From NCBI RefSeq assembly GCF_964204865.1, contig NC_135263.1:11284001-11348000 (forward strand): a stretch of DNA of 64,000 nucleotides. The letters run 5' to 3'. The stretch is from Styela clava (lineage: Eukaryota). Positions 48,001-51,000 of the stretch are shown piece after piece. A program made the position numbers. The first letter of the stretch is position 1. Each line of letters opens with the position of its first letter.

Positions 48001-51000
48001 ATTTCCCAAAATGAAACTACTTTTAAGGATAATTTTGTGTTCATCACTGAGTAAACATATATAGTTATATAATAATATCCATATCTATGTTATGCATAAG
48101 GTAATTGTTTTTCCCTTATCTGTGTCACTATATGTTTGCCGCTATATCTGAATCTGAGGAGTATGAAGTAGTAACTAACAATAGATAGGTAAACCCTTCC
48201 TAATCGTGGAGTAAATATATATAATGATCGTCCAAGCCGATGGAATATGAATATGATTTGATCTCGTTTCGACCACTAATTCACATGCTGGTGGATGAGA
48301 CGGACAATCTTAGTTACCCCATGGAGGACTCATTGCTCCTGGTAAAGGTCGATCAAAATCGATATCAGGGTGAGGATAACCTTCACGATCAAACCACCAG
48401 TCGATAGTATGGCCCTCACCACGACCCGTTGACTCAGTCGGAAATCTGTCTACCTTTCCAGGCCCAGGCCTCCATGGTTCATTGGAATCAAAATCAGGGG
48501 AGAATGTAATGGTAGAGCCAAAGGAAGCAGATGGTGTTGAAGTAGTTGGATATATAGCAATGTCATCTCGGGATTTAGGTCCAAAGAAGAGTAGCCAATC
48601 AGGAAAAGCTAAATTGTTAAATGCCTTGAGAATGGAGAAATCTAGCAGTAATATCAAGCCCAAGTAACTTTGGTTTGATCAGAATACATGGTTGTTCGTA
48701 AAATTTCCGTATGTGTTTATTCAGGCCTTAAAATTGGTATTCATAATTCAAACACAATGGTATTTACATAGTTATAATATTTTATGTTTGCCCTATTACA
48801 TTGTTGACATTTCCAAATAAAAGTCCTGAGTTCAAATAAAAAATATATTAAGGTTGATTTAACATATATTCCGTTTAATATTATCTTACTTGAGCTGTGG
48901 TAGTAAAAGGGGGCGCGTCATTACCCCAAGCTATTGAAAACCTGTTGAAATGTGGGTGGGGTTTTTATATATATATATATCAAAAATGCACTCACGTCTG
49001 CATCCCTCAGGATGTCTTGGGTCAACATTAGCAGGTCTGTAGAAACCATCAGCACACTTCTCGCAGTTGATTCCAGCAGTGTTATGAAGGCAGTTTTTGC
49101 AGACACCACCTCCTTCGTAATTGCCATCCAAATCAAGAGATTGCCGTCTTATCGCGACTTGCTCGTCGAAATCGCATTCAGTGCTGTGGCCGTGGCAATT
49201 GCATCCTGAAATGTTTGATCGAGTGATTATTTCGAAATATATGACAAAAAAACAAAATTCATTTGAACCTATTATGAGAATTTTAAACACTTACGTTCGC
49301 ATTGATTTGCACTTTCTGGAACAGCAGCTTTCCATTCTTTCTGGACAAAACCGGGACAACAATACTCGCAGCTATCTCCACATGTGTTGTGTCGGCATTC
49401 GCATTTAAGCCTGGAAATCATGAAAAATATGTAGGCTATCAATAAGGCACTGTATCGGTAGTATAGATATGACTAAATCAACGAAACCTACTTGTATCTA
49501 TCATCGGGATCTGGCAAGCAAGTATCAGCGTGGCCATTGCAGACACATCTTCCACCAATGCTAATATCTTTGATACTGTAGAAATACTGCAAAGAAACAA
49601 ATAGACATTATAAATGTAAGTAATAGGTAGATTCACCCAGAATTGAAATTAATTAAATGAAAATCTACTCAAACCCACTCTTCTAGTCACAGTGGGATCT
49701 TGTCTCTGAACTGCCATCAAGTGTCCGAGAAGTGTTTTGGTGCGCAGAAGACGCAGTCTCACGTCAGTAGCCTTGCTCCATTCTTGAAGAACTGGGGAAT
49801 GCGAGAAATTTTTTGCGCCAGGACGCCGATTGATGATAGAAACAATTACCTGAATAATAATATTAATAACAACATGATAGGTTTTAGACTACTTCATAAG
49901 TATGTTTGGTTGGTGCTGGCTCAATGCCATTTGGTGGAACTCACCTCGCCGCGTTCCAATGGAACAACGTCGGAGTATTCTGATGTACACATGACGCTAT
50001 CATCGCTAGTAATTTCTTCAAAAGCATCGATACCAAACAGATTGTGGCAATCACTGTCACTGTTAGCAAAATACTGCCATGGTTGGAAAGTTTTTCCGTG
50101 ATCAGACGATCGTTCCAAAACCCAGGTACCGGCACGTGGAGAATTGGCGAACTTGATGATGGCATATGCGACGTGGAAAACCTAATAATAAATTTATAGA
50201 TAATCATGACTGAGCAATAAATAAAGGTTGACCAATACAAGGAAGTACATACCAGGCATTGTTTATTTCATTGCAACATAATGTTTGATTTCTAAAATAT
50301 TTGAATAGAGTCGATAGGACTAACGTAATTACCAATCGCAATCTACATCACATAAGCATGGTGGTCCTGGTATTAGACTGTGTAACATTTTCGTAAATAG
50401 AAGAGAACTAAAATCGATGCCCCACGCTTGGCCTAGTATAGGTGCCGTTGAAAATTTTCAATTAATCACATTGTTATGTTGAAAAGGATTCGACAGGGAG
50501 TATTGGATTGATAACGAAATAATTTCAAATAATGGTTTCGTAAAACGCTGCTTGTGTAAAGATCACATATCAAGCGAATCATTTTCGGGAAGCTCGTAAA
50601 ATTAATCTGTTTAAATCATTTAACACGCATAAAAGTGTTTTCACCTGCACAATTAATTACACATCAGACACAATTAGTAGATTGCAGTTACAACGATTTT
50701 ATTACACTGTGTTTTAATTGAAGGGTTATTGCGATAGATAATACTAGTTATTATGAGCACGCTAATTAAGTTGCAATATTCGTGAGTATAATTGAGGGGG
50801 TTAATTTTTTACCATTGAGCAATTTACATTTGTCAGAGGGTTAAAATGTATTTTGCCATTAAACAATTTACAATCAATACGGCTTTTGTTTCATGTATTT
50901 TTACCATTTGCCGGCTTTACGGCGTTTGTAGCTTAAATTGCCTTGAGGGCACAAATGATATCGAAGGAAAATCTTTAGAATTTTAAGCAAGCGCTATTTT

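What the first reader, a model, noticed from the sequence alone, without database searches (positions are those of the whole stretch)
48310..48608. Extra exon after LN plus two LE repeats: LaNt/netrin-like short isoform or a 97-aa insert
Seen: an in-frame open exon rich in Pro, Asp, Trp and Thr follows LE2. Read to its stop, it gives a protein of about 502 aa made of signal peptide, LN, 2 LE and a unique tail. Spliced at G|gtaact (48318), it inserts 97 aa between LE2 and LE3. I saw no AATAAA between it and the next exon, which somewhat favours the cassette reading. Known: human LAMA3 produces LaNt alpha31 (LN, short LE stretch, unique tail), and netrin-4 is an LN-bearing inhibitor of laminin polymerisation. 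Inference: this is either an invertebrate analogue that regulates network assembly or a flexible spacer in the short arm.
Basis: partly seen in the sequence, partly recalled or inferred. Interest (0 to 1): 0.72.

Follow-up and report, generated by a model that had tools for sequence, protein, structure and literature searches.

The report
Possible extra exon in laminin gene
A 291-base stretch inside an intron of an invertebrate-type laminin alpha gene looks statistically like a real, in-frame extra exon encoding a cysteine-free flexible linker, but nothing like it is found in the neighbouring sister gene or in any other known protein, so it needs RNA evidence.

Summary
On the minus strand, 48608-48318 is an open, 291-nt (97-codon) stretch with AG and GT at its ends. 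It lies in the 1128-nt intron between the LE2 and LE3 exons of a laminin alpha gene. Read to its stop, it gives 502 codons.

The window holds two colinear tandem paralogues, A and B, and the candidate is in A only. No homologue was found: none in B, none in the four inspected relatives that span LE2-LE3, and none in three large protein searches.

Its statistics are nevertheless exon-like:
- Codon score is 0.32, against 0.35±0.19 for exons and -0.14±0.11 for 72 intronic ORFs. None of 2000 stop-free shuffles reached it.
- GC at codon positions 1/2/3 is .53/.57/.30.
- An exhaustive scan picks exactly 48608-48318, in the intron's own phase, at 40.4 bits. The best true decoy reaches 19.3.
- Both splice sites are weak, at the 14th percentile of the gene's own sites.

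Best reading (about 0.5): a lineage-specific, probably alternative cassette exon that puts a disordered Pro/Asp/Ser/Thr-rich hinge right after the LN-LE1-2 head. The LaNt-like terminal-exon reading is disfavoured (about 0.1), because there is no AATAAA or ATTAAA downstream and an in-phase donor sits two codons before the stop. An unspliced relic or chance ORF remains plausible (about 0.3). No transcript data could be consulted.

The parts
48318..48608 (-). Candidate cassette exon: 291 nt, phase 1 to phase 1, 97 codons. It is Cys-free and rich in Pro, Asp, Ser, Thr, Gly and Trp.
   Evidence: Sequence read. Codon score 0.32 against 72 intronic ORFs at -0.14±0.11, with 0 of 2000 shuffles reaching it. 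The coding signal rises at 48608 and falls after 48318. It is the best exon in the intron at 40.4 bits.
48609..48610 (-). Putative acceptor AG (context TCTCAAGGCATTTAACAATTTAG|CTT).
   Evidence: PWM score 3.89 bits, the 14th percentile of 58 real acceptors. 12.5% of 511 intronic decoy AGs score as high.
48316..48317 (-). Putative donor GT (context GGG|GTAACT).
   Evidence: PWM score 5.56 bits, the 14th percentile of 59 real donors. 4.1% of 691 decoy GTs score as high. An alternative in-phase donor after 48420 scores 5.93 bits.
48310..48312 (-). TAA stop reached two codons after the donor if the donor is not used (tail ...PPWGN*).
48609..48678 (-). Upstream extension of the ORF, beyond the acceptor. 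It is not coding-like.
   Evidence: Codon score -0.34, GC 0.33.
48996..49205 (-). LE2 exon of gene A. It ends in phase 1 with donor C|GTGAGT.
   Evidence: Pfam EGF_laminin. Matches residues 325-393 of the 403-residue laminin alpha5 LN-LE1-2 chain 2y38_A, E 6e-18.
47733..47867 (-). LE3 exon of gene A, with a strong acceptor (TTTTTACTTTTTAG|CTT).
   Evidence: Pfam EGF_laminin, E 5e-11. 75% aa identity to B's LE3.
49945..50181 (-). LN exon of gene A carrying the alpha-type loop VVPLERGE.
   Evidence: Pfam Laminin_N, E 1.5e-23. Translation. The loop residues are those named in PMC3059903 (passages read).
19086..19294 (-). LE2 exon of paralogue B, used as a comparator.
   Evidence: The B intron to LE3 (19085-18719) is about 365 nt and holds no counterpart of the candidate.
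18584..18718 (-). LE3 exon of paralogue B, used as a comparator.

Best explanation
48608-48318 is a lineage-specific exon of paralogue A of a tandemly duplicated laminin alpha gene of the alpha5/LanA type. It is spliced in frame between the LE2 and LE3 exons, and its weak splice sites suggest it is an alternative (cassette) exon. Skipping it gives the canonical tight LE2-LE3 junction. Including it inserts 97 cysteine-free residues rich in Pro, Asp, Ser, Thr and Gly.

Inferred mechanism: the insert is an unstructured hinge or spacer, possibly O-glycosylated on the stretch YPTTSTPSASFGSTITFSP. It sits immediately after the LN-LE1-2 head, the unit that was crystallised for alpha5 and that inhibits polymerisation when soluble. 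It would uncouple the node-forming head from the rigid LE rod. That would change the reach and geometry of the alpha short arm, or make the head easier to shed.

Shown: the open frame, the phases, the sites and the coding-like statistics. Inferred: splicing, inclusion level, disorder and every functional consequence.
For: Codon statistics:
- Per-codon coding score is 0.311 to 0.323, against 0.347±0.186 for 72 paralogue-confirmed exon segments. 72 clean intronic ORFs of at least 50 codons score -0.141±0.111, maximum 0.084.
- None of 2000 stop-free shuffles reach the score or the GC12-GC3 periodicity of 0.25. GC at positions 1/2/3 is .53/.57/.30, against .49/.44/.34 for exons.
- The other five frames score -0.96 to 0.02 and carry 2 to 12 stops.

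Boundaries:
- The signal is bounded by the proposed sites: the ORF part upstream of the acceptor scores -0.34, 48606-48421 scores 0.23 and 48420-48319 scores 0.49.
- Exhaustive enumeration of AG...GT exons in the intron gives exactly 48608-48318 as the best. It scores 40.4 bits in phase 1, the intron's real phase, against 17.6 and 16.7 in the wrong phases.
- Of 216 decoy combinations of block, strand and phase over 30.9 kb, none reaches it. The top decoy (28.0) is an unmasked real exon of gene B and the next scores 19.3.

Other support:
- GC is 0.471, and only 1 of 688 clean-intron windows is as high.
- The frame has no usable ATG. Its only Met is 7 residues from the end, so it can be coding only as a spliced exon.
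- No AATAAA or ATTAAA lies downstream.
- No transposon hallmarks, tandem repeats or RNA family were found.
- A related alpha chain, P0017, carries a lineage-specific acidic insert inside LE4, so this part of the short arm tolerates inserts.
Against: - No homologue anywhere. phmmer against 1.84 billion representatives gave 1 hit at E 7e-4, and it is a translated tandem repeat. Word-indexed searches of proteins of 173-2000 aa and 53-172 aa gave none. Pfam gave 0 families and the Atlas gave no usable hit.
- Paralogue B has a 365-nt intron at this place with no counterpart, while every other A exon between 52615 and 36992 has a B partner.
- The 4 of 4 inspected relatives that span LE2-LE3 (P0017, P0011, P0020, P0061) have a single residue between the last Cys of LE2 and the first Cys of LE3.
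- In P0003, the closest relative at 75% and 81% identity to A and B, LE3 follows LE2 after about 22 codons, read out of frame.
- Both splice sites are weak, at the 14th percentile.
- The synonymous-only codon score does not discriminate: 0.013, with 13 of 72 intronic ORFs as high. The signal is therefore at the amino-acid and position level.
- An insert between, rather than within, LE domains breaks the rod. This point rests on general knowledge and was not tested.
Confidence: 0.5

Rival explanations
1. It is not part of any mature mRNA. It is either a chance open stretch in a GC-richer patch of the intron, or the decaying relic of a former or captured coding piece that is no longer spliced in.
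For: - No conservation in the paralogue, in relatives or in any database.
- Weak acceptor with a poor pyrimidine tract, and a weak donor.
- ORFs of 94 to 117 codons occur by chance in these introns.
- The synonymous-only score is not discriminating.
- The plus strand is also open for 95 codons here.
- Skipping gives the canonical junction seen in B and in relatives.
Against: - The codon score and periodicity lie outside all 72 intronic ORFs and all 2000 shuffles.
- The signal starts and stops at in-phase splice motifs.
- The total exon score of 40.4 compares with at most 19.3 for true decoys, and it arises in the one phase that fits the host intron.
- A recent relic would still have to have been an exon of this gene.
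Confidence: 0.3
2. It is an alternative terminal exon giving a 502-residue secreted LN-LE1-LE2 protein with a 99-residue unique tail. That would be a functional analogue of LaNt alpha31 or of netrin-4, able to compete at laminin network nodes.
For: - The frame ends in TAA two codons past the donor, so non-use of the donor yields this protein.
- The LN exon keeps the alpha-specific P-L-E..E loop. Mutating that loop abolished inhibition of laminin-111 polymerisation by soluble alpha5 LN-LE1-2 (PMC3059903, passages read).
- The break point coincides with the end of the crystallised LN-LE1-2 unit.
Against: - No AATAAA or ATTAAA lies in the 450 nt between the stop and LE3, only GATAAA at 47991.
- An in-phase donor lies two codons before the stop, and the exon length is a multiple of three.
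- LaNt tails come from retained intron with polyadenylation inside it. Here the tail is a separate exon, 387 nt beyond an in-frame stop.
- No protein of 173-2000 aa with this tail is in the collection.
Confidence: 0.12
3. It is an exon of a different transcript on the same strand (a nested or overlapping gene), or coding DNA captured from an unknown gene by exon shuffling that is used outside the laminin reading frame.
For: Coding-like statistics without any laminin homology. Exons with phase 1 at both ends are the class usually moved by exon shuffling; this point is recalled general knowledge.
Against: - No start codon in the frame.
- No partner exons with similar properties in the intron. 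The other candidates score 17.6 bits or less.
- No source gene in any database.
- The frame matches the host intron's phase.
Confidence: 0.08

Closest known systems
LaNt alpha31, the short isoform of human LAMA3 (PMC9788559, passages read)
   Same: It comes from a laminin alpha gene. It would consist of an alpha-type LN domain, the first LE repeats and a unique non-homologous C-terminal tail. It shares its promoter with the full-length chain.
   Different: The LaNt tail is retained intron sequence contiguous with the exon, and polyadenylation occurs inside that intron. Here the sequence is a separate spliced unit 387 nt downstream. It has an in-phase donor, no AATAAA or ATTAAA after it, and a length that keeps the full-length frame. 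The literal intron-retention product here would instead end after 21 residues at 48933-48931.
Netrin-4 and netrins (PDB matches 4wnx, 4plm and 8edk; review passages)
   Same: They have an LN plus LE head that can interfere with laminin network nodes.
   Different: Netrins are separate genes with beta- or gamma-like LN domains and a C-terminal domain; the C-terminal domain is recalled. This LN has the alpha loop, and the tail has no Pfam domain.
L4 and LF globular inserts of laminin short arms (PMC9788559 passage)
   Same: They are extra polypeptide interrupting the LE array of a short arm.
   Different: L4 is a folded domain inserted inside one LE, between cysteines, and is conserved across chains. 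The candidate lies between two LE domains. It has no cysteine, no family match and no confident predicted fold: pLDDT 38.6 from a single sequence, which is weak evidence.
Acidic insert inside LE4 of the related alpha chain P0017 (unnamed record; 62% identical in LE2)
   Same: It is a lineage-specific, low-complexity, Asp/Phe/Ser/Gly-rich, cysteine-free insert in the LEa region of a LanA/alpha5-like chain.
   Different: It lies within an LE loop, not between domains. No significant sequence similarity to the candidate was found. P0017 joins LE2 to LE3 directly.
Laminin alpha5 / Drosophila LanA-type alpha chains (the host gene)
   Same: LN, LE arrays, LG domain and the alpha-specific LN loop are all present. 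The best solved match is laminin alpha5, 2y38.
   Different: There are two tandem, anciently diverged copies, and one of them carries this extra unit.

Membership tests
Laminin alpha chain (host gene A) | N-terminal LN domain | tested here: met
   Pfam Laminin_N, E 1.5e-23 and 4.9e-9, on exons 50181-49945 and 49849-49679.
Laminin alpha chain (host gene A) | Arrays of laminin-type EGF (LE) repeats | tested here: met
   Pfam EGF_laminin on all 4 gene-A LE ORFs scanned. Many further Cys-rich ORFs run down to 37225.
Laminin alpha chain (host gene A) | Alpha-specific beta5'-beta6 loop residues (Pro229, Leu230, Glu231 and Glu234 of alpha5) | tested here: met
   VVPLERGE is present in both A and B. 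The residues are those named in PMC3059903. The alignment was made by eye, not structurally.
Laminin alpha chain (host gene A) | C-terminal LG domains | tested here: met
   Pfam Laminin_G_2, E 4.9e-8, on 31347-31724. Only one LG piece was detected among the ORFs scanned.
Laminin alpha chain (host gene A) | Long coiled-coil domain | tested here: inconclusive
   ORFs 33821-34099 and 32380-32670 gave no Pfam family at E <= 0.01. They look heptad-like by eye only.
LaNt-type short isoform | Alpha LN domain plus the first LE repeats | tested here: met
LaNt-type short isoform | Unique C-terminus encoded by retained intron contiguous with the last shared exon | tested here: not met
   Read-through of the LE2 donor stops after 21 residues, at 48933-48931. 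The candidate starts 387 nt downstream of LE2.
LaNt-type short isoform | Cleavage and polyadenylation within the intron, downstream of the tail | tested here: not met
   No AATAAA or ATTAAA in 48317-47868, only GATAAA at 47991. Motif scan only; actual 3' ends are not testable here.
LaNt-type short isoform | Transcript and protein detected | not testable with these tools
   No transcript or eukaryotic genome collection was available. No matching protein of 173-2000 aa was found.
In-frame cassette exon | AG and GT boundaries within the range of the gene's real sites | tested here: met
   3.89 and 5.56 bits, each at the 14th percentile of 58 and 59 real sites. They are weak but within range.
In-frame cassette exon | Length divisible by three, phase equal to the host intron's, no in-frame stop | tested here: met
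   291 nt, phase 1 at both ends.
In-frame cassette exon | Coding-type sequence statistics | tested here: met
   The synonymous-only score was inconclusive.
In-frame cassette exon | Conservation of the exon in paralogues or orthologues | tested here: not met
   Absent from B. Absent from the 4 of 4 spanning relatives inspected and from P0003. No database homologue. True orthologous loci could not be examined.
In-frame cassette exon | Splice-junction reads for inclusion and skipping | not testable with these tools
   No RNA data were accessible.
Netrin | C-terminal netrin (NTR) module after the LE repeats | tested here: not met
   Pfam gave 0 families for the tail at E <= 1. That this module defines netrins is recalled.

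The most novel reading that the evidence does not exclude
One copy of an anciently duplicated invertebrate laminin alpha gene has evolved, from sequence with no detectable ancestry, a switchable exon placed exactly at the boundary of the polymerisation head (LN-LE1-2). When its donor is used, the exon gives a long-tethered, flexible head on the full-length chain. When the donor is skipped, the stop two codons later gives a secreted 502-residue LN-LE1-2 decoy. That decoy would be an independently evolved, spliced-exon counterpart of mammalian LaNt alpha31, so one exon would tune basement-membrane network assembly in two ways.
Probability: 0.1. Interest if true: 0.65.

Novelty: new variant of a known kind. 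Interest (0 to 1): 0.36.

Why it matters
If the exon is used, it would be an example of a young, orphan, disordered exon inserted at the one place in a laminin short arm that separates the node-forming head from the rod. Regulated production of LN-bearing fragments is so far documented for mammalian LAMA3 (LaNt alpha31) and for netrin-4. An invertebrate case made by a different splicing route would suggest that tuning of network assembly by alpha-type heads evolved more than once.

If the exon is not used, it is a useful warning. Strong codon-like statistics can occur in an intronic ORF that has no conservation at all.

Either way, the tandem pair of diverged alpha genes gives a built-in comparison for experiments.

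Tried and rejected
Searches for relatives of the candidate:
- Pfam on the candidate peptide and on the opposite-strand ORF gave 0 families.
- blastn (word size 7) and tblastn of the candidate against the whole window found only itself.
- phmmer against 1.84 billion representatives gave one hit, P0002. It is a translated tandem repeat and was rejected as spurious.
- Word-indexed searches of longer and similar-length proteins gave none. Neither reaches proteins above 2000 aa, so a full-length annotated alpha chain carrying the insert would have been missed.
- The protein atlas gave no usable hit.

Structure and repeat checks:
- Single-sequence AlphaFold2 gave pLDDT 38.6. This is compatible with disorder but uninformative without an alignment. 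No fold search was made on it.
- Transposon or repeat origin: no tandem repeat except (TA)7 at 48966-48980, and no convincing terminal repeats. The only internal feature is a 14-nt echo 129 nt apart (PDIDFD and PDFDS).
- Rfam gave nothing at gathering score in the window, and one sub-threshold chance match in LE2.

Ideas rejected:
- Gene conversion as the cause of the 95% identical LN exon. Third-position identity is only 0.53.
- ORF length as evidence. Introns hold ORFs up to 117 codons.

Slips:
- A first version of the noncoding control was contaminated by unpaired exons in 21387-36951 and was replaced (then).
- In one search, my frames for the LE1b exons were wrong and those rows were ignored.

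Not done:
- Genome contigs was not scanned, because it holds bacteria and archaea only.
- Supplements were closed. Supplementary Fig S3 of PMC3059903, the alpha-chain loop alignment, could not be seen.
- A joined spliced model was not built, translated or searched. All searches were exon by exon.
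Full report
**What is in the window.** The window (64,000 bases, no N, about 35% G+C) carries two colinear laminin alpha-type genes in tandem on the minus strand.
- Gene A starts with a signal-peptide-like exon at 53057-52937. It then has LN exons 52608-52349, 50181-49945 and 49849-49679, LE1 exons 49586-49492 and 49410-49295, LE2 at 49205-48996 and LE3 at 47867-47733. 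A long LE/L4 array runs down to about 37225, and at least one LG piece lies at 31347-31724.
- Gene B runs from 21339 to the window's start. tblastn pairs it with A exon by exon from 52615 to 36992.
- Amino-acid identity per exon is 40-95%, and third-codon-position identity is only 0.36-0.67. The duplication is therefore old.
- Both copies keep the alpha-specific LN loop VVPLERGE. This corresponds to Pro229, Leu230, Glu231 and Glu234 of alpha5, whose mutation abolished inhibition of laminin-111 polymerisation (PMC3059903, passages read).
- The best solved match of the LE2 exon is laminin alpha5 LN-LE1-2 (2y38_A, residues 325-393 of 403, E 6e-18).
- I do not take the contig for human. The best named matches to LE2 are 51-66% identical, from a copepod, birds, hemichordates, a beetle and a mussel. 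The organism was not identified.

**The observation.**
- The minus-strand frame is open from 48678 to the TAA at 48312-48310, 122 codons.
- AG at 48610-48609 and G|GTAACT after 48318 delimit 291 nt.
- LE2 ends in phase 1 and LE3 starts in phase 1. Inclusion therefore reads ..GCR-P-FPDW...SPPW-A-CDCDS.. and skipping reads ..GCR-P-CDCDS...
- The 96 whole codons give P 15, D 11, F 9, G 9, S 9, T 8, R 6, W 5 and no Cys.
- Adding the exon lengths gives 1210 nt through LE2, plus 296 nt to the last sense codon. That is 502 codons, by arithmetic on coordinates.
- No AATAAA or ATTAAA lies between the stop and LE3. The only variant found is GATAAA at 47991.
- All searches were made exon by exon.

**Is it more than chance?** ORF length alone is not. 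Introns of these two genes hold ORFs of 117, 103 and 94 codons. The content of the stretch is a different matter.
- I trained a codon model on 72 exon segments confirmed by the A/B pairing (13.3 kb) against 16 kb of clean intron.
- The candidate scores 0.323 bits per codon. Exons score 0.347±0.186 (leave-one-out). 72 intronic ORFs of at least 50 codons score -0.141±0.111, with a maximum of 0.084.
- Its other five frames score -0.96 to 0.02 and carry 2 to 12 stops.
- G+C at codon positions 1/2/3 is .53/.57/.30, against .49/.44/.34 for exons. The GC12-GC3 contrast of 0.25 exceeds every intronic ORF (maximum 0.163).
- Only 2000 of 199,076 shuffles of the stretch were stop-free in frame. None of those 2000 reached its score or its contrast.
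- The signal is bounded by the proposed splice sites. The ORF part upstream of the acceptor scores -0.34, the two halves of the exon score 0.23 and 0.49, and the score decays after 48318.
- G+C over the 291 nt is 0.471, and only 1 of 688 clean-intron windows reaches that.
- A caveat: a synonymous-only score does not discriminate (0.013, with 13 of 72 intronic ORFs as high). The evidence is therefore about amino-acid and codon-position composition, not codon choice.

**Splice sites and an exhaustive exon scan.** I built position weight matrices from the genes' own sites (58 acceptors and 59 donors after dropping the lowest 12% of an automatic set).
- The acceptor scores 3.89 bits and the donor 5.56 bits. 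Each is at the 14th percentile of real sites.
- 12.5% of 511 decoy AGs and 4.1% of 691 decoy GTs in introns do as well.
- An alternative in-phase donor after 48420 scores 5.93 bits and would give a 63-codon exon. The strongest coding signal lies beyond it, however.
- I then enumerated every stop-free AG...GT unit of at least 60 nt and divisible by three in the LE2-LE3 intron. The best is exactly 48608-48318 in phase 1, at 40.4 bits (3.9 + 5.5 + 31.0). Phase 1 is the real phase of this intron. The two wrong phases give 17.6 and 16.7.
- None of 216 decoy combinations (36 intron blocks x 2 strands x 3 phases, 30.9 kb) reaches it. The top decoy (28.0 bits, 10762-10625) falls on a B exon that I had failed to mask; it matches A 41101-40808. 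The next decoy scores 19.3.

**Evidence against a conserved exon.**
- The peptide has no Pfam family and no second copy in the window.
- It has no counterpart in B, whose LE2-LE3 intron is about 365 nt.
- It has no real hit among 1.84 billion representative proteins. The single hit at E 7e-4, P0002, is a translated tandem repeat.
- There is no hit among proteins of 173-2000 or 53-172 residues and no usable Atlas hit.
- Of the 71 LE2 relatives found (78 candidates scored), I fetched 7. The 4 that span LE2-LE3 (P0017, P0011, P0020, P0061) all have a single residue between the last Cys of LE2 and the first Cys of LE3. P0004 ends at LE2. P0003 and P0027 are read-throughs of genomic DNA.
- In P0003, the closest relative (75% identical to A and 81% to B in LE2), the LE3 exon follows after about 22 codons, read out of frame. 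That relative therefore has an intron of roughly 65 nt with no room for such an exon.
- The other 64 hits were not inspected, and proteins above 2000 residues were outside all word-indexed searches.

**What it is not.** No tandem repeat, terminal repeat or RNA family explains the stretch. It has no usable start codon; the only Met is 7 residues from the end. If it is coding, it must be a spliced exon. Single-sequence AlphaFold2 gives mean pLDDT 38.6. This fits disorder but is weak evidence without an alignment.

**Interpretation.** I consider it most likely (about 0.5) that this is a lineage-specific exon of gene A. The weak sites and the perfectly viable skipped junction suggest it is alternatively included. 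It would insert a cysteine-free Pro/Asp/Ser/Thr-rich hinge directly after LN-LE1-2, which is the unit crystallised for alpha5 (PMC3059903 abstract and passages). Flexibility, possible O-glycosylation of YPTTSTPSASFGSTITFSP, altered reach of the alpha arm and easier shedding of the head are all inferences.

The LaNt-like reading (about 0.12) fails two of the features that the LaNt review gives: a tail from retained intron, and polyadenylation inside that intron (PMC9788559, passages read). It cannot be excluded, because the stop lies two codons past the donor.

An unspliced relic or chance ORF (about 0.3) is the main rival and is favoured by the total lack of conservation. An exon of another transcript or captured coding DNA takes the remaining share (about 0.08).

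No eukaryotic genome or transcript collection was available, and metagenome and viral contig collections and paper supplements were closed.

**Novelty and score.** If real, this is a new variant of a known kind: a laminin alpha chain with an inter-LE hinge exon. It is of moderate interest to matrix biologists, and more so if the short isoform exists. I searched the paper library twice. Among the 24 papers listed I saw no description of an invertebrate LaNt-type isoform or of an insert between LE2 and LE3. The term 'invertebrate' occurs 0 times in the LaNt review. This is not a thorough literature negative. Interest 0.36.

Noticed in passing
window 53057-~28000 (gene A) and 21339-1 (gene B), minus strand: Two colinear laminin alpha-type genes lie in tandem, paired exon by exon. 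Amino-acid identity is 40-95% and third-position identity 0.36-0.67. This is an old duplication with both copies intact as far as the window shows.
   Followed up: partly
window 50181-49945 vs 20795-20559: The LN exon carrying the alpha loop is 95% identical in protein between A and B, but only 53% identical at third positions. That points to strong purifying selection rather than gene conversion.
   Followed up: yes
window 48995-48609, minus strand: Literal read-through of the LE2 donor would add 21 residues (RECIFDIYIYKNPTHISTGFQ) and stop at 48933-48931. ATTAAA at 48879-48874 and AATAAA at 48721-48716 lie downstream. This is formally a LaNt-style intron-retention route, but by my own base-frequency estimate about one such hexamer is expected by chance in 1.1 kb of this A+T-rich intron.
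   Followed up: partly
window 48941-48890, minus strand: A 52-nt unit has the strongest splice motifs in the intron (acceptor 6.81 bits, donor 8.64 bits). It is not divisible by three, and by my reading it hits TAG after three codons in the host phase. It is a possible poison exon or a pair of decoy sites.
   Followed up: no
window 25299-26192, minus strand: A 297-codon ORF between gene A's LG exons and gene B has an exon-like codon score (0.287). Its sequence is very acidic, followed by a hydrophobic, transmembrane-like stretch (VVPAILIIIGVIVGVVLFAAVVSAV) and a Pro-rich tail. It has no Pfam family. It may be a separate gene or an unusual 3' end.
   Followed up: partly
window ~51062-51352: This is the only clean-intron window with G+C (0.478) at or above the candidate's. 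It lies in gene A's 2.2-kb intron 2. The overlapping 117-codon ORF is not coding-like (score -0.138). It remains unexplained.
   Followed up: no
window 58582-59136 and 60325-61059, plus strand: ORFs of 184 and 244 codons lie upstream of gene A and have no Pfam family. Whether they are coding was not assessed.
   Followed up: no
protein P0017 (unnamed record), residues ~215-275: A related alpha chain carries a cysteine-free Asp/Phe/Ser/Gly-rich insert of about 60 residues inside LE4 that genes A and B lack. Lineage-specific low-complexity inserts therefore do occur in this part of the short arm.
   Followed up: partly
window 10762-10625, minus strand: My exon scan flagged this unit (28.0 bits) in a block I had treated as intron. 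It lies in B's counterpart of A exon 41101-40808. This serves as a positive control for the scan.
   Followed up: yes
window 48380-48667, plus strand: The opposite strand is also open for 95 codons across the candidate. Its codon scores are low (0.02 or below over 48318-48608) and it has no Pfam family.
   Followed up: yes
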